A DNA stretch of 64,000 nt from Candidatus Hydrogenedens sp. (GCA_049968235.1 JBMFRC010000005.1:121444-185443), one strand, 5' to 3'. Positions 58,682-64,000 are shown, counted from the stretch's first letter. Notes: a model not told the origin generated them from the sequence alone. Made by a program: numbers and translations.

Positions 58682-61600
58682 ATGAAAGGATTTCATATCA
58701 ATTTGCTTTTTCGAGTATCTTTATTGACGATTGTATGCTTTTTTCTTTTCTTTTCCGCGCACACACAGGAGCCTCTGCCTGATGTTTTACAACGGGGGTA
58801 TATTTCTCAATGGATGATATGTGGACCGTTTCCTTCTGACCTTGAAAAAGGGATAAAAAATGCCATTGACAAAAATGAAGCCCCTTTAGGGAATCGGGAT
58901 TTCTGGATAGGGAAAGGAGGAATTACACAACTTCTACCTCAGGCGGGTGAGAAAATACAAATAGATGGAATAACTTATACATGGCTTCCCTTTGTAGTCA
59001 AGAATCCGAGACTGGATTTTCATTCCCTACAACCGCCGGATGAATGTATCTATTACCTATCCGCATATGTTCAGGTTCCGGAAGACCAGATAATTTATAT
59101 TCACCTTCAAACTCCATTAGGGGCTCGGCTCTGGATTAGTAAAACGAAAATAAGAGATGTCAAAGCGATGCCCATTGAACATTTGGGGATAGACCATGCA
59201 CTGGTTCGATTACGCAAAGGGTTAAATCTTTTTGTATTACAAGTACCTTTTTTATCTTTACAGAGCATTAGCGAAATTACAAAAATTCCCGTTGATAATA
59301 TACCTATGAAACTCTGGTCGCAAAAGGAACCTAATATCGGACAGACTGGCTATGAGATGAACTTTCATATCCGTCCTATTGAACCAGCAGGTGCCATTTA
59401 TTATGTCCCCTTACTTGAACCCTCCCGAAAATTTACAGGACCCGAAATTGACCCCAAACAGGTGTTTTATCTCACAATATACAATCCAACCGCAAAACAA
59501 ATTTATCCAGTAAGTATTAATGCTTGGATAATGCCTCAGAATTTTTCTCTTCCCAATCAGCAACTCTCACTACAACCTCAGGAAGAAAAACGTGTGCCGT
59601 TGCAAATACCCAATAAAAGACGAAAACAAAATGATAAAGCAAATGTTCGAGTATTAATTACCGCACCAAACGAAAACGGTGAAAATCAAACATCTGAATT
59701 TAATACACAAATAACTTTTACAGAGCCCGAACCTTTAAGTAAAACTTATCTCATCACAGGGACCTGGGGTGAAGGTTCTTCCCAATCTGGAACATTACAT
59801 AATTTCCTGCAAAAAACCGAAGCAAGTAAAACGCAGATATGGAACGCTTATGAAACGCAAGATTACGGAACGGATATAGGTACTGGGAGTATCTGGTTAC
59901 ATGTGCTATATCAGAATCCGGATATAATTACACCACTACGAGAGACTATCCAGCGGGGGAAAAGCACCGCTCAAAATATTTTCACACCGATTGATGAACG
60001 ATTACTTTCGACAGAATCTATCTTTATGAACTACTTTTTAGGGACAAAACTGAAGGAAGGAATGTTAAAAGAATTTAACAAATCCTTTATTGCATGGAAT
60101 TATCCTGCCTTATCACCTCAATCCTCGCAAATTATCCGTAAATGTAATTTTAACGGAATTGTTTCCAATATATCTTCTCAAACCATTCCATCGCTTGCTT
60201 TCTGGAGGGAACCTTCGGGCAACTCCATTATGTTACGGACATTAATGACGCCCCCTGCGTTTCGTAATTTTCATGAAGTAAAAAAATGGGCTTTTATCTC
60301 TCATGCGGAAGTAGAACCTCTCATCCCTGAAATTGATATGTTGGTTCTTGAAAACACATCTCCTTACCTTAACATCAATCTTTTACCCGATTTAAAAAAT
60401 GAAATACCACCTTTTTATTTTCACGGAAACGGTTCATCGGAATTCTTTGAAGAAATCCTAAACTTTCTCAATTCTCGAGGGAACATAGATGCCATTCCTA
60501 ATATCTTTCAACCTGTATATGTTAGAGAAAATCTTGTGGATATTCTTTCTAATCTATTGTTAAAGACCTGTCTGTATCAGTTGGAAGAAAATCTTTTACA
60601 GGCTCAGACATCAGCAACTATCGCAGGTGTATTCGGAATGTCATATCCCGGTGAAATCATAGCCCGATTGTGGACAATTTTATTGCAAACAGCAGACCCA
60701 CAGATTATAAACAACGAATTATCTGAAAGTGAGATGACCTCTTTGCTATCCCAAATATGTACAGGAATCCATGATACTGAGAAAATCATACAACGCACTA
60801 TGAAACATATTGCAGATAATGTTAATACCTTAACCTACGTTACCGATAAAAAGCCAAACTCACAGACTATTGTCGTATTCAATCCCAACTCCTCTGTAAA
60901 AACTTTGCCTATTACTGCGGATATAGTCATTCCCAACCCCCAATTTTCCCTTGTATCCACAGACGGCAAATCGGTTTCCTGCCAGATATATGCTACACAA
61001 GAAGAAACCTCTTCGATAACTACTTACAAGGTGCAATTTGTGGCAGAAGAAGTCCCTCCATATGGAATTAAAACATTTTATCTAATCCCTGATACCAGGA
61101 CAACCCCAATTGTTAAGGTTAAAGATAATTTCATCGAAAACGAGTTTATGCTGGTTCGCATTAACAATAAGACAGGGAACATTACTCACATCATTGATAA
61201 AACTTCCGGTAAAGATATAATTCCTCCGGAAAGTAATTTTGATAGGATAGGTTTTTCTGACCCGGATAAAGGGAACTTTATCCCATTTTCAGATGTACTT
61301 ACCCGTTATGAGACATTTAAATCTGATTTGTTACAACGGATTGTTATCCAGTTTGAAAGTGAAAAAGGAACCTTAACAAAAGAATATTGCTTATATAAAA
61401 ATGTAAATCAGATTTATTGCTATCATTGTTTAATTCCTGCAGAGGGGATTTCCGAAAATAGTCTCGTCTCTGCTTTTAATACGGCCTCTGATGGGACAGT
61501 TCCAATCTATGGTTCACAGTCCTTTGCCTTGACATCGCCACCATCTATCTCTAACACAAAAAATAACAATTCATTATTTTTTGCTCACCGTTTCTTTGCG

Positions 61601-63295
61601 GAAGGTGCTGGAGATTGTATTAAGACAGAGGATAATGCATATATACCATTATCGGATATAGTGATTATAAAATCAGATGAAAAAATCATTCCTGTTTTAC
61701 AAAATCTAATAATGAAAACCTTATGGAACCGAGGTATTCCTTCAACTACGGTTTCTATTCAAGATTGGACAAAAAAAGAAAAAAATGCTTCTTTCTATAT
61801 CTGGACAGGAACAGCAAAATCTTATGAAAATATAAAAGATTGGATTGCTGGAACCTATCCCAAATTAAATGATGAGATTATAAAGAGAAGTGATGTGGGA
61901 ACACCTTTCTTAATTCGAACTCAGAGGGACAATTCCATTTATAACTTTTTAGGATTTGTTGCAAATAGTCCTGAAAAATTGGGTAGTGTAATTGGTAATT
62001 TCCTTAATATGCTTGACCAGCGTGGAGAGTTTATTATCCCTTCAGCGGTTACTATCGGCGCGGGAACAGAAATTCCAAATTACGGTCTGGCGATTATGTT
62101 TAACGGGACTAAACTTGTTTCAACCAATCCGAACAAATCTTTTTATCTATATCATGGCAATATCAATGCTAAAGAATACTCTCCGAAGATTAACGCTATG
62201 CCCATTTTCTATCGAATATATCCGTTTTCAGGGCATTGGCTCCGAACAGATATTATTAAACAAAGTAACGAAAGACCTTTATTATCTACCACAACAGGGC
62301 TCCATGGAGGTTCATGGACAAATAATACAACTTTCCTTTCGCTGGATAACCCGAATATCTACATATCCTCCATAAAACCTATGGGAACAGGGATTCCTTT
62401 AATTCAATCCGAACAGCAAAATCCTACAGATATGTTTATAGCACGATTAAATGCTATCGGCAATCAAAAACAAGAATGCCTTTTGAGTAGTTCATTCGCT
62501 ATTAACAGTATTCAGGCACTAACACCTCTGGAGTCTATAGATACCTCTTCCAACAACTTAAAAGAACAGCCAATTCATTTTAATCCGTGGGATATTCGAA
62601 CCTTGTCTGTCTCTCTTAAAAAAGTTACCGCTCCCAACCGAGTACCCTTTGATACGAAAGATATTTGCTATTCCAATTCGGACTATATTACATTCCCGCT
62701 ACAAAATGGTTTTGAATCTCCTATAATCAAAATATCACCTGTAAATACTTCATCATCAGCAAATATACAACTCACTATCTCTAATATCAACGCAAATGAA
62801 ACACTTCAAGGGACTGTTTTTTTAGAGGCATCCGATAATTGTATTCTTAAAACCTCTCAGGTCCCTTATCACTTAACACCTTTAACGGGAATTCAACATA
62901 CTATACCCTATGAACAATCAGAAAAAGAAAATTCTCCTCCCATTATCAATGCCTGGACAGAGATTAATGGCAATACGATTCGGACATTCCTTTCAAAAGA
63001 TGAATTTCCCGCAAAAATAACCTATGAAAAAACTACCTCACAGATAAAAATTACGATTGAAAATACTCAACCTGTTCCTTTATATGGGAATATAACATGG
63101 ATTTCTCTTCGTTATTCTCAGGTCGCACACGATATTCTTTATAACCAGTTCGTAAAACCTGAAAATACAGACCTCTATTTAAAACCTTTTGAAACAAATT
63201 CATATACCTTCTTACCGCAGACTATATCCCTATCAGATACGGCAATAGCACGCATCCAAATTAATAATAAAGTCCAATTCCTTTCCATCCAATAA
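58682..63295 (+). CDS. giant secreted hypothetical protein (1537 aa)
   Basis: Signal peptide 'MKGFHINLLFRVSLLTIVCFFLFFSAHTQE'. No catalytic motif recognised. Immediately follows the membrane-protein gene. Confidence 0.55.
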   Translation: MKGFHINLLFRVSLLTIVCFFLFFSAHTQEPLPDVLQRGYISQWMICGPFPSDLEKGIKNAIDKNEAPLGNRDFWIGKGGITQLLPQAGEKIQIDGITYTWLPFVVKNPRLDFHSLQPPDECIYYLSAYVQVPEDQIIYIHLQTPLGARLWISKTKIRDVKAMPIEHLGIDHALVRLRKGLNLFVLQVPFLSLQSISEITKIPVDNIPMKLWSQKEPNIGQTGYEMNFHIRPIEPAGAIYYVPLLEPSRKFTGPEIDPKQVFYLTIYNPTAKQIYPVSINAWIMPQNFSLPNQQLSLQPQEEKRVPLQIPNKRRKQNDKANVRVLITAPNENGENQTSEFNTQITFTEPEPLSKTYLITGTWGEGSSQSGTLHNFLQKTEASKTQIWNAYETQDYGTDIGTGSIWLHVLYQNPDIITPLRETIQRGKSTAQNIFTPIDERLLSTESIFMNYFLGTKLKEGMLKEFNKSFIAWNYPALSPQSSQIIRKCNFNGIVSNISSQTIPSLAFWREPSGNSIMLRTLMTPPAFRNFHEVKKWAFISHAEVEPLIPEIDMLVLENTSPYLNINLLPDLKNEIPPFYFHGNGSSEFFEEILNFLNSRGNIDAIPNIFQPVYVRENLVDILSNLLLKTCLYQLEENLLQAQTSATIAGVFGMSYPGEIIARLWTILLQTADPQIINNELSESEMTSLLSQICTGIHDTEKIIQRTMKHIADNVNTLTYVTDKKPNSQTIVVFNPNSSVKTLPITADIVIPNPQFSLVSTDGKSVSCQIYATQEETSSITTYKVQFVAEEVPPYGIKTFYLIPDTRTTPIVKVKDNFIENEFMLVRINNKTGNITHIIDKTSGKDIIPPESNFDRIGFSDPDKGNFIPFSDVLTRYETFKSDLLQRIVIQFESEKGTLTKEYCLYKNVNQIYCYHCLIPAEGISENSLVSAFNTASDGTVPIYGSQSFALTSPPSISNTKNNNSLFFAHRFFAEGAGDCIKTEDNAYIPLSDIVIIKSDEKIIPVLQNLIMKTLWNRGIPSTTVSIQDWTKKEKNASFYIWTGTAKSYENIKDWIAGTYPKLNDEIIKRSDVGTPFLIRTQRDNSIYNFLGFVANSPEKLGSVIGNFLNMLDQRGEFIIPSAVTIGAGTEIPNYGLAIMFNGTKLVSTNPNKSFYLYHGNINAKEYSPKINAMPIFYRIYPFSGHWLRTDIIKQSNERPLLSTTTGLHGGSWTNNTTFLSLDNPNIYISSIKPMGTGIPLIQSEQQNPTDMFIARLNAIGNQKQECLLSSSFAINSIQALTPLESIDTSSNNLKEQPIHFNPWDIRTLSVSLKKVTAPNRVPFDTKDICYSNSDYITFPLQNGFESPIIKISPVNTSSSANIQLTISNINANETLQGTVFLEASDNCILKTSQVPYHLTPLTGIQHTIPYEQSEKENSPPIINAWTEINGNTIRTFLSKDEFPAKITYEKTTSQIKITIENTQPVPLYGNITWISLRYSQVAHDILYNQFVKPENTDLYLKPFETNSYTFLPQTISLSDTAIARIQINNKVQFLSIQ

Positions 63296-63297
63296 AA

Positions 63298-63319
63298 GGG
63301 GCGAATAATTATTCGCCCC
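63298..63319. repeat. REP-like perfect palindrome GGGGCGAATAATTATTCGCCCC
   Basis: 22-nt perfect palindrome 3 nt after the stop of the 1537-aa gene. On the minus strand it is followed by TTTTATTGG. Abuts the RAYT remnant. Confidence 0.55.
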
Positions 63320-63611
63320 AACAATGATTCCATGAATATGATTGGGCATTATTACAAATTCATCCAATAAAAGTATTGGGAAAATGTTTTGGTATTTCCA
63401 ACCAACAATTTTGTGCCACCATCCCCGCATCGTTCAACACCATTTTTCCATCCGCCACATTACCAAATAAACATGCCCGGTTTTGCGTTACAATGGTGAT
63501 AAAATACGCCCCCGGTTGGGCGTAATCATACCCCAGCAATCGAATGGAACGCCGGTGGTGGATATTGGGATTGTATTTGTTCTTTTTTAATTCATCTATG
63601 TTTGTGGTGTA
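63320..63611 (-). pseudogene. degenerate REP-associated tyrosine transposase (RAYT; IS200-like Y1 HUH transposase) remnant
   Basis: Minus-strand translation '...NIHHRRSIRLLGYDYAQPGAYFITIVTQNRACLFG...VLNDAGMVAQNCWLEIPKHFPN' then, after a 1-nt frameshift near 63370, '...LLDEFVIMPNHIHGIIV'. This is the RAYT N-terminus and HUH motif. No ATG (ATC at the expected start). Truncated right after HxH by the REP palindrome. Confidence 0.55.
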
Positions 63612-63625
63612 TCACCATATGCCCG

Positions 63626-64000
63626 TTATTGGGGCAAATGATTATTTGCCCCTACGATTATTTTTATTTCTTCGGGCTTTAAATCATACAATTGATAAAC
63701 TAACCTATCTATCTCCCTTTCCCACGCACTTGTATCCGCCTGCGGGTTTTGTTTCTTTTCTGCCAATATCTTATCCACCAACTCCTCTATGCGTTTTACC
63801 TGCGGCTCATTGGCAGGGGTGATGGGGGGAAGGGAAATTTTTTCCATGTTCTCTTTTGATGCGTATGTATAGTTTTCTTCAGAAGAAAACAAAAAAGTTA
63901 AAAAATAACGCACCAAATTTGAATTAAATAATGCACAAAAGTATTTTGTTGGTCCGTTCGTTATCATAAAAACTGCATTATTGAAGTATAATCCATCAGG
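63626..64000 (-). CDS. 3' end of a type IIG restriction-modification / N6-adenine DNA methyltransferase-like gene (continues beyond window)
   Basis: Open to the window edge. 'FCALFNSNLVRYFL' and 'EREIDRLVYQLYDLKPEEIKII' match the C-terminal TaqI_C/Eco57I-like target-recognition tail of gamma-class MTase/RM fusion enzymes. Confidence 0.45.
   Translation of the reverse strand, partial: PDGLYFNNAVFMITNGPTKYFCALFNSNLVRYFLTFLFSSEENYTYASKENMEKISLPPITPANEPQVKRIEELVDKILAEKKQNPQADTSAWEREIDRLVYQLYDLKPEEIKIIVGANNHLPQ
63631..63652. repeat. second REP-like palindrome GGGGCAAATGATTATTTGCCCC
   Basis: 9-bp stem / 4-nt loop. 18/22 identical to the first palindrome. Encodes the last residues (VGANNHLPQ*) of the adjacent minus-strand gene. 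Confidence 0.5.

What the first reader, a model, noticed from the sequence alone, without database searches (positions are those of the whole stretch)
63298..63652. Degenerate RAYT (REP-associated tyrosine transposase) bracketed by two REP-like palindromes
The minus strand between 63611 and 63320 encodes '...HHRRSIRLLGYDYAQPGAYFITIVTQNRACLFG...' and then, in a different frame, '...DEFVIMPNHIHGIIV'. These are the conserved N-terminal strand and HUH (HxH) motif of IS200-like Y1 transposases of the RAYT class. The gene is decayed: ATC where the start should be, a 1-nt frameshift near 63370, and truncation directly after HxH, so the catalytic Tyr region is lost. Both ends abut near-identical 22-nt GC-clamped palindromes (GGGGCGAATAATTATTCGCCCC at 63298 and GGGGCAAATGATTATTTGCCCC at 63631), which is exactly the RAYT-REP association. 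No ORF caller would report this. It marks the junction between the giant secreted-protein gene and a restriction-modification-like gene.
Basis: partly seen in the sequence, partly recalled or inferred. Interest (0 to 1): 0.65.

Follow-up and report, generated by a model that had tools for sequence, protein, structure and literature searches.

The report
Decayed RAYT transposase with its REP hairpins
This is the dead, half-deleted remnant of a REP-associated tyrosine transposase gene in a Candidatus Hydrogenedens genome, still carrying two copies of its hairpin repeat; it belongs to an already described subclass whose genes normally carry that hairpin in frame, so it is ordinary.

Summary
The minus strand 63584-63298 encodes the N-terminal half of a Y1/HuH transposase. 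Two near-identical 22-nt GC-clamped palindromes sit at 63298 and 63631, where 0 are expected by chance.

The RAYT/REP reading is right, with three corrections:
- Intact homologues carry this palindrome in frame between the HuH and Tyr motifs (VGANNYSPL). This is the hallmark of TnpA_REP subclass 2.4, Bertels group 4 (Quentin et al. 2018, PMC6006769). Palindrome 1 is therefore the family's intragenic REP, not a flanking one, and the gene is cut at that REP's 3' foot. Palindrome 2 is the upstream flanking REP and also forms the last codons of the neighbouring RM-like ORF.
- The start was lost by ATG->AAG (63584-63582), not ATC.
- The frameshift is a complex AA->TTT change. It recreates a 13-mer that lies next to REP1.

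Elsewhere the element is a 28-nt double-foot REP, GTAGGGGCGAATAATTATTCGCCCCTAC. It is scattered mostly as solo copies in genomes of many bacterial phyla. Two orthologues, L126 and L127, are intact.

The copy is inactive: no Tyr half exists anywhere in the window, and a second strain carries the same lesions. Verdict: a new, dead member of a known kind. Interest is low.

The parts
63628..63655 (-). REP2, the upstream flanking REP. The core is 63631-63652. On the minus strand it has a canonical 5' GTAG foot (plus-strand TAC at 63653-63655) and a degenerate 3' foot, CAAT. It also encodes the last residues (VGANNHLPQ) of the RM-like ORF; that ORF's stop codon, 63628-63626, overlaps the REP's degenerate 3' foot.
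   Evidence: The same REP lies at identical spacing upstream of the intact orthologue L127 and upstream of L126.
63585..63627 (-). Spacer between REP2 and the former RAYT start. It begins AATAAC, as it does in relatives L123, L126 and L127.
63582..63584 (-). Lost start codon. The window has AAG where orthologues L123, L126 and L127 have ATG.
63372..63584 (-). RAYT remnant, segment A: 71 codons, KNKYNPNIHHRRSIRL...EIPKHFPNT.
63370..63372 (-). Frameshift site. Minus-strand AA is replaced by TTT relative to orthologues (plus-strand TT->AAA), net +1.
   Evidence: The same lesion is in strain L121.
63320..63370 (-). RAYT remnant, segment B: LLDEFVIMPNHIHGIIV. The HuH codons H-I-H are at 63332-63340.
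63298..63322 (-). REP1, the in-frame intragenic REP that encodes (V)GANNYSP. Its 5' foot is GTTG, one mismatch from GT[AG]G. Its 3' foot CTAC is cut after CT.
   Evidence: It scores as terminator-like on the minus strand: hairpin followed by TTTTATT.
63286..63298 (.). Copy B of the 13-nt exact direct repeat (plus-strand CATCCAATAAAAG). It comprises the deletion junction, the last two codons and the stop of the giant gene.
   Evidence: The giant gene's end is native.
63361..63373 (.). Copy A of the 13-nt direct repeat, inside the RAYT remnant at the frameshift.
58682..63295 (+). Convergent neighbour: a 1537-aa protein with weak GH38 C-terminal domain hits. Its C-terminus is intact.
63626..64000 (-). 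3' part of the RM-like ORF, which runs off the end of the window. Its tail is fused to REP2.

Best explanation
The feature is a pseudogene of a REP-associated tyrosine transposase (TnpA_REP/RAYT) of subclass 2.4, Bertels group 4, together with two copies of its cognate double-foot REP. The host is a Candidatus Hydrogenedens genome.

The original unit, still intact in orthologues L126 and L127, read on the minus strand as follows: an upstream REP, about 46 nt of spacer, then a roughly 190-codon gene. In that gene a REP hairpin sits in frame in the linker between the HuH motif and the WQ/YIxNNP tyrosine helix.

Three lesions killed the window's copy:
- The start codon changed from ATG to AAG.
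- A complex AA->TTT frameshift arose 17 codons before the end of the HuH block.
- A deletion runs from the CT of the intragenic REP's 3' foot to 2 nt past the stop codon of the convergent giant gene. It removed the whole tyrosine half.

Shown: homology, the architecture, the three lesions, their presence in a second strain, and the dispersed nature of the REP.

Inferred:
- The deletion was nucleated by the REP hairpin. The possible routes are REP-REP recombination with a 3'-flanking REP, hairpin-stalled replication, or cleavage by TnpA_REP itself at its CT site.
- The frameshift was templated by the nearly identical sequence 75 nt away, next to REP1.
- The remnant has no transposase function. 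At most, its hairpins still act as REPs do elsewhere, for example as a terminator or stabiliser for the convergent transcripts.
For: Family:
- NF047646 REP_Tyr_transpos matches at E=7.8e-7.
- 1499 homologues, the best 78% identical, some named RayT.
- Intact homologues P0012, P0035, P0071 and P0004 read ...MPNH[IV]HGI..VGA[NK]N[YHI]SPL..GTSKTIGSIIRGFKIGVTKW..WQRNYYEH..YIxNNP. This matches the subclass 2.4 motifs NH[IFV]H / WQ / YIxNNP, 'double foot' REPs and REPs 'inserted in tnpAREP' between HuH and Y (PMC6006769).

REP:
- 103 of 135 genome copies have a 5' GTA and 94 have a 3' TAC.
- 47 of 62 intact metagenome genes carry a perfect hairpin of at least 8 bp in frame after HuH.

Orthology and lesions:
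- L126 shares the upstream RM-tail plus REP context and has an intact 190-aa gene that passes Pfam Y1_Tnp.
- L127 has the same REP both upstream, at identical spacing, and in frame.
- ATG versus AAG and AA versus TTT are both seen in the alignment.
- No Tyr half is found in the window.
- Strain L121, 99.75% identical, carries the same lesions, so they are not assembly errors. NCBI calls no gene there.

Junction:
- The giant protein ends exactly where its 49%-identical homologue ends.
- Characterised TnpA_REP enzymes cleave at CT next to the REP (PMC8266576).
- 3'-flanking REPs exist in relatives.
Against: - The defining catalytic Tyr motif cannot be shown in this copy, so membership rests on the N-terminal half and on orthologues.
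- The window holds only these two REP copies in 64 kb, so whether the REP is dispersed within this genome is unknown.
- The closest intact orthologues, L126 and L127, show no perfect 3'-flanking REP, which weakens the REP-REP deletion route.
- L126 carries a different REP type in frame than upstream, so the intragenic REP is not strictly co-inherited with the gene.
- No biochemistry exists for subclass 2.4 enzymes. Cleavage at CT is extrapolated from groups 2 and 3.
Confidence: 0.9

Rival explanations
1. The segment REP2 - N-half - REP1 is itself a REP-bounded, non-autonomous mobile unit, like a long REPIN/BIME or an IS200-like element with left-end and right-end hairpins. On this view it was moved here in trans by an intact RAYT, rather than decaying in place.
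For: The segment is bracketed by 28-nt inverted repeats that are 86% complementary (I1). L172 shows the same REP - N-half - REP architecture with no Tyr half within 1500 nt, preceded by the tail of another HuH block plus REP, that is, in tandem. Only 9 of the 120 best N-half homologues keep a Y motif.
Against: L126 has an intact gene in the same upstream context: the RM-tail ORF fused to the REP, and the same spacer. L127 has the upstream REP at identical spacing with an intact gene. The simplest history is therefore in-situ decay. The lesions in the start codon and at the frameshift are point-like, not transposition products. Many of the short homologues are cut by contig ends, and 62 of 80 metagenome loci are intact.
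Confidence: 0.07
2. The palindromes are ordinary intrinsic terminators or regulatory hairpins of the flanking genes. On this view their resemblance to each other and to the RAYT coding sequence is incidental.
For: REP1 followed by TTTTATT scores as terminator-like on the minus strand. REP1 lies 2 nt after the giant gene's stop, and REP2 overlaps the RM-like ORF's stop.
Against: The same 22-mer occurs in more than 120 genome loci across many phyla with conserved GTAG/CTAC feet and unrelated flanks. It also occurs in frame inside intact RAYT genes. On the plus strand neither hairpin is followed by a T run. Terminator-like action would be a secondary use, as is known for REPs, not an alternative origin.
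Confidence: 0.03

Closest known systems
TnpA_Y1 subclass 2.4 (Quentin, Siguier, Chandler & Fichant 2018, BMC Genomics 19:475), equal to RAYT group 4 of Bertels et al. 2017 (GBE 9:2110)
   Same: The HuH motif is NHIH. Orthologues have WQ and YIxNNP. The REPs are long 'double foot' REPs (5' GTAG, 3' CTAC). A REP is inserted in frame between HuH and Y, and a further REP flanks the gene. The phylogenetic distribution is patchy across phyla.
   Different: This copy is a pseudogene that lacks its start codon, its reading frame and its whole Tyr half. The host phylum, Hydrogenedentota, is not among those listed in the paper. The REP feet of the two window copies are partly degenerate.
E. coli REPtron: TnpA_REP/YafM, group 2 or subclass 2.2, PDB 4er8 (Ton-Hoang 2012, Messing 2012, Corneloup 2021)
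   Same: It has a Y1 HuH fold. Its REP hairpins carry a GTAG guide tetranucleotide, and REPs flank the gene. Cleavage at CT next to the REP offers a plausible route to the observed break after CT.
   Different: Sequence similarity is very low: the orthologue L126 matches 4er8 at E=0.037, and the window fragment does not match at all. E. coli REPs are bulged, imperfect hairpins that lie outside the gene. The E. coli HuH motif is DHLH (HMH in 4er8).
IS200/IS605 TnpA (subclass 1.1)
   Same: It is a single-domain Y1 HuH transposase that recognises subterminal hairpins and acts on single-stranded DNA.
   Different: IS200 has the Y motif YxxxQ, occurs in many identical copies, often has a tnpB partner and has no GTAG-footed REPs.
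Intragenic REPs (Di Nocera, De Gregorio & Rocco 2013, BMC Genomics 14:522)
   Same: REP2 is fused in frame to the 3' end of an unrelated ORF and supplies its last codons and stop. This is as described for GTAG REPs located inside genes.
   Different: Here the host ORF is an RM-like gene. The same RM-tail + REP + RAYT block recurs in relatives L121, L126 and L127.

Membership tests
TnpA_REP subclass 2.4 / RAYT group 4 | HuH motif NH[IFV]H on the third beta strand | tested here: met
   MPNHIHG is encoded at 63347-63327. It is conserved in 115 of the 120 best homologues.
TnpA_REP subclass 2.4 / RAYT group 4 | WQ motif and catalytic Tyr motif YIxNNP | tested here: not met
   Absent from the window: tblastn with six intact homologues finds nothing beyond 63296. 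Present in orthologue L126 (WQRNYYEH, YIVNNP) and in P0012 and P0035. The motif was deleted here, so this is a pseudogene of the family and not a functional member.
TnpA_REP subclass 2.4 / RAYT group 4 | REP inserted in frame between HuH and Y | tested here: met
   REP1 starts 4 codons after HGII and reads GANNYSP. The same peptide and DNA occur in intact homologues. 47 of 62 intact metagenome genes have such a hairpin.
TnpA_REP subclass 2.4 / RAYT group 4 | Double-foot REP: 5' GT[AG]G and 3' C[TC]AC around a GC-clamped stem | tested here: met
   At family level, 79 of 135 genome copies have both feet, 103 have the 5' GTA and 94 have the 3' TAC. In the window, REP2 has GTAG/CAAT and REP1 has GTTG/CT-cut, so the feet are partly degenerate.
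TnpA_REP subclass 2.4 / RAYT group 4 | REPtron-like arrangement, with a REP flanking the gene | tested here: met
   REP2 lies 46 nt upstream of the former start. Upstream REPs are also found in L123, L126, L127 and 14 of 68 metagenome loci.
REP family (as defined by Nunvar 2010 and Di Nocera 2013) | Many dispersed copies within the host genome | not testable with these tools
   Only 64 kb of this genome is available and it holds 2 copies, both at this locus. Dispersal is shown in other genomes, for example at least 11 loci in Dehalococcoidia OY762251.1.
Y1 HuH transposase superfamily (Pfam PF01797) | A significant profile match | tested here: inconclusive
   The window fragment gets no Pfam hit but matches NCBIfam NF047646 at E=7.8e-7, below the curated cut-off. 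Orthologue L126 passes PF01797 with 24.4 bits against a cut-off of 23.

The most novel reading that the evidence does not exclude
Carrying the REP in frame inside the transposase gene makes RAYT plus REP a single, horizontally portable replicator. This would explain why the same 28-nt REP is found almost unchanged in many phyla. It would also make the gene a substrate for its own hairpin chemistry. On that reading, the break exactly after the CT of the REP foot, the templated frameshift beside it, and the many N-half-only relatives are footprints of a built-in self-destruction route for group 4 RAYTs.
Probability: 0.15. Interest if true: 0.5.

Novelty: new member of a known kind. Interest (0 to 1): 0.2.

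Why it matters
For this genome it matters little. The locus is a dead gene fragment at a strain-variable boundary next to defence-type genes.

Its value is in annotation. Peptides such as VGANNYSPL or GRIIIRPF at ORF ends are read-through of a REP hairpin, not real protein features. Short 'hypothetical' ORFs that end there are broken group 4 RAYTs.

The side observations could feed a study of how REP-RAYT pairs spread and decay, but none of them was established here. These are the one REP sequence shared by distant phyla, the breaks and partial duplications located at REP feet, and the frameshift that looks templated.

Tried and rejected
- Pfam on the repaired fragment and on the RM-like tail gave no hits at E<=1.
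- The PDB sequence search with the fragment gave only spurious hits.
- Rfam on 62500-64000 found nothing near its gathering scores.
- I tried to fetch the window's own 185-kb contig beyond position 64000, to count REPs and look for an intact RAYT. Look-ups with the giant protein at two alternative starts found no record. The neighbour protein returned only the 21-kb contig of another strain.
- I tested whether solo REPs lie next to RAYT genes. Only 2 of 135 do, so the idea that every palindrome marks a RAYT gene was dropped.
- I tested whether RAYTs of this family generally target RM-gene 3' ends. Only 3 of 80 loci show the RM C-terminal motif nearby, so a general target preference was rejected.
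- I considered that the giant gene's last codons were created by the rearrangement. This was rejected because a 49%-identical homologue ends at the same residue.
- I considered the frameshift to be an assembly error. This was rejected because an independent strain assembly has it.
- My count of REPs lying inside long stop-free stretches (53 of 135) is not informative in high-GC genomes, and I did not use it.

Full report
**1. Observation**

They are the only matches in the 64-kb window even with three mismatches allowed, and 100 shuffles gave none. No other GGGGC...GCCCC palindrome of this type exists in the window. As single-stranded DNA each forms a 9-bp hairpin of about -10 kcal/mol, z = -4.7 and -5.1.

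The minus strand reads KNKYNPNIHHRRSIRLLGYDYAQPGAYFITIVTQNRACLFGNVADGKMVLNDAGMVAQNCWLEIPKHFPNT over 63584-63372. After one extra base it reads LLDEFVIMPNHIHGIIVGANNYSPLL over 63370-63293.

**2. What the coding remnant is**

- Pfam finds nothing in the repaired 98-aa fragment. NCBIfam's REP-associated tyrosine transposase model matches at E = 7.8e-7.
- A search of the large protein collection returns 1499 homologues, up to 78% identical. Several are named 'REP element-mobilizing transposase RayT' by JGI.
- Intact homologues P0012, P0035, P0071 and P0004 continue after the HuH motif as ...HGI(I/V)..VGA(N/K)N(Y/H/I)SPL..GTSKTIGSIIRGFKIGVTKW...WQRNYYEHIIR...YIxNNP.
- The peptide VGANNYSPL is the translation of the palindrome. 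In this family the palindrome is therefore part of the open reading frame, lying between the HuH motif and the tyrosine helix.
- DNA of relatives confirms this. L124 and L125 carry GTAGGGGCGAATAATTATTCGCCCCTAC in frame. L122 carries GTAGGGGCAAATAATCATTTGCCCTTAC in frame in an intact 170-codon gene. L123 carries three copies.
- Among 80 metagenome loci fetched with the N-terminal half, 62 have the two halves in one uninterrupted frame. Of those 62, 47 carry a perfect hairpin of at least 8 bp between the halves.

**3. What the palindrome is**

- The record titles name many lineages: Dehalococcoidia and other Chloroflexota, Bacteroidales, Flavobacteriales, Planctomycetota, Desulfacinum, Geomonas, Myxococcota, Patescibacteria, Omnitrophota, Fibrobacteria, Endomicrobiia, Synergistaceae, Nitrosomonadales and Moraxellaceae.
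- The flanks are unrelated to each other except for three bases on each side. 103 copies have 5' GTA, 94 have 3' TAC and 79 have both. The unit is therefore the 28-nt GTAG-GGGCGAATAATTATTCGCCC-CTAC.
- Only 2 of the 135 copies lie next to a RAYT gene, so these are dispersed solo elements.
- A GT[AG]G tetranucleotide at the foot of a GC-rich hairpin is the defining mark of REPs recognised by TnpA_REP (PMC6006769; PMC8266576).

**4. Comparison with what is known**

- Quentin, Siguier, Chandler and Fichant (2018) describe TnpA_Y1 subclass 2.4, which equals group 4 of Bertels et al. Its features are HuH NH[IFV]H, WQ, YIxNNP and 'double foot' REPs with 5' GT[AG]G and 3' C[TC]AC.
- As 'a unique feature', they report REPs inserted within the tnpA_REP gene, between HuH and Y, without disrupting the frame. 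They list the distribution as Cyanobacteria, Bacteroidetes and various phyla.
- Bertels et al. (2017) report group 4 in 17 bacterial classes, with only modestly abundant flanking 16-mers.
- Every one of these features is met by the family to which the window's fragment belongs. The kind is therefore already known.

**5. Orthologues and the lesions**

- The window comes from a Candidatus Hydrogenedens MAG.
- L126, a metagenome relative, has the same upstream context: an ORF tail ...EREIDRLVYQLYDLTPDEIKIIVGANNYLPQ* fused to the REP, followed by the same spacer. After that comes an intact 190-codon gene. That gene passes Pfam Y1_Tnp and weakly matches E. coli TnpA_REP 4er8 over the WQ...YIxNP helix.
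- L127 has the window's REP sequence both upstream, 332 nt from the end of the HuH block exactly as in the window, and in frame, again with an intact gene.

Against these orthologues the window shows three lesions:

1. AAG in place of ATG at 63584-63582.
2. ACTTTTATTGG in place of ACAATATTGG. This is a complex AA->TTT change, net +1.
3. Loss of everything beyond the REP. The canonical ...GCCC-CTAC becomes ...GCCC-CT|TTTATTGGATGG, and this runs straight into the antisense of the giant gene's stop codon.

No tyrosine half is detectable anywhere in the window. A second strain, L121 (GCA_049971155.1), is 99.75% identical over 16.7 kb and has the same frameshift and truncation. The lesions are therefore real and older than the strain split. 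NCBI's annotation calls no gene there.

**6. How the lesions may have arisen (inference)**

- The break falls directly after the CT of the REP's 3' foot. Characterised group 2 and group 3 TnpA_REP enzymes cleave single-stranded DNA at a CT (or CA) dinucleotide 5' or 3' of the REP, selected by the GTAG guide.
- Relatives often have another REP at or just past the 3' end of the gene, as in L124, L125 and about 10 of 50 intact loci with enough downstream sequence.
- Three routes would each leave the N-half ending in one REP: recombination between the intragenic REP and a 3'-flanking REP, replication stalling at the hairpin, or cleavage by the enzyme itself. I cannot choose between them.
- L172 is an independent example of REP - N-half - REP with no Tyr half within 1500 nt.
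- A 13-nt exact direct repeat (minus-strand CTTTTATTGGATG) lies both at the frameshift (63373-63361) and immediately after REP1 (63298-63286).
- The copy after REP1 is native giant-gene sequence. A 49%-identical homologue ends at the same residue, QFLAIK* against QFLSIQ*, with a homologous stop region.
- The orthologous RAYT sequence shared only 9 of these 13 bases. The AA->TTT change is exactly what makes the two copies identical.
- By my own base-composition estimate, a chance 13-mer match within the 300-nt remnant has probability of about 1e-5.
- A templated mutation is the simplest reading: a template switch or short-patch conversion between imperfect direct repeats that straddle a hairpin. 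This is not shown.

**7. REP2 and the neighbours**

- REP2 keeps a canonical GTAG foot on the minus strand. It supplies the last codons (VGANNHLPQ) of the ORF that runs off the window's end, and that ORF's stop codon overlaps its degenerate 3' foot.
- That ORF has only sub-threshold similarity to TaqI_C (E = 0.067) and PglX (E = 0.044). An uninterrupted relative of its C-terminus in L127 ends ...EDEIKIVEGHK*. The REP therefore replaced the last few codons, as described for intragenic REPs (PMC3733652).
- In strain L121 the sequence upstream of 63747 is replaced by an AAA_15/AAA_21 ATPase gene. L121 also has an extra 27-nt partial REP copy beside REP2. The locus is thus a strain-variable boundary, and the REP is a site of small rearrangements.
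- On the minus strand REP1 plus TTTTATT scores as terminator-like. Rfam finds nothing.

**8. Verdict**

The amendments are the role of palindrome 1, the start-codon detail and the nature of the frameshift.

The feature is a non-functional remnant of a described RAYT subclass with its described in-frame REP. It is a new, dead member of a known kind, in a phylum not listed in the defining paper.

The cross-phylum identity of the 28-nt REP, including 17 stretches in IMG/VR viral contigs, and the REP-foot breakpoints are the only mildly surprising aspects. I scored them separately as the novel case.

Noticed in passing
window 63286-63298 and 63361-63373: There is a 13-nt exact direct repeat. One copy lies at the REP1/giant-gene junction and the other at the RAYT frameshift. 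Orthologues show that the frameshift (AA->TTT) is what made the two copies identical, which suggests a templated mutation across the hairpin.
   Followed up: partly
window 63747-64000 versus L121 16684-17219: Two strains that are 99.75% identical diverge completely upstream of 63747. The window has a long RM-like ORF. L121, like the metagenome relative L126, has an AAA_15/AAA_21 ATPase gene followed by only the last ~100 nt of the RM-like ORF. This looks like a strain-variable boundary between defence-type genes.
   Followed up: partly
L121 16540-16600 (equivalent to window ~63625-63655): The sister strain has an extra 27-nt partial copy of REP2 (AGAAAAATGATTATTTGCCCCAATAAC) and ATAG instead of GTAG at the foot. 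L127 has a similar half-REP duplication after its in-frame REP. Half-REP slippage seems to recur.
   Followed up: no
L127 1300-2300: An intact RAYT with its upstream REP sits between two diverged copies of the same RM C-terminal coding region: ...QIEELVDKILTVKKQNPQADT... upstream and ...KIEVLVGKILSAKKSDPKADTTDWESEIDNLVYSLYELSEDEIKIVEGHK* downstream. It looks as if the unit carried an RM tail with it. Only 3 of 80 loci show any RM motif nearby, so this is not a general target preference.
   Followed up: partly
L172 1-500: This is a second case of REP - N-half - REP with no Tyr half. It is preceded by the end of another HuH block plus REP, a tandem arrangement, and is followed by an HsdS-like ORF.
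   Followed up: no
L001-L120 (genome loci) and L206-L222 (IMG/VR): The same REP core, with a 28-nt GTAG...CTAC consensus, occurs nearly unchanged in genomes of many phyla, including high-GC Dehalococcoidia with at least 11 loci in one chromosome. It also occurs in 17 viral or prophage stretches. REP families are usually lineage-specific.
   Followed up: partly
L124 250-386 and L125 55-191: Upstream of the RAYT there is a REP split by an insert of about 35 nt in its loop (GTAGGGGCGAATAA...AATCATTCGCCCCCCAC). The gene there also has an in-frame TAG just before the Y motif.
   Followed up: no
P0006, P0002, P0032, P0089: Some homologues have tandem peptide repeats after HuH, such as ENHSP x11, NNSPRQ and AVVQN. 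These are apparently expansions of half-REP units within the linker.
   Followed up: no
L126 2145-2221: A second, short RAYT N-terminal fragment (ITICTQNRECLFGNVVGEN...) lies about 70 nt downstream of the intact RAYT gene.
   Followed up: no
window 58682-63295 and L223 1-3154: The giant protein has only sub-threshold GH38 C-terminal domain hits. In the one detectable relative the last 217 residues are called as a separate ORF.
   Followed up: no
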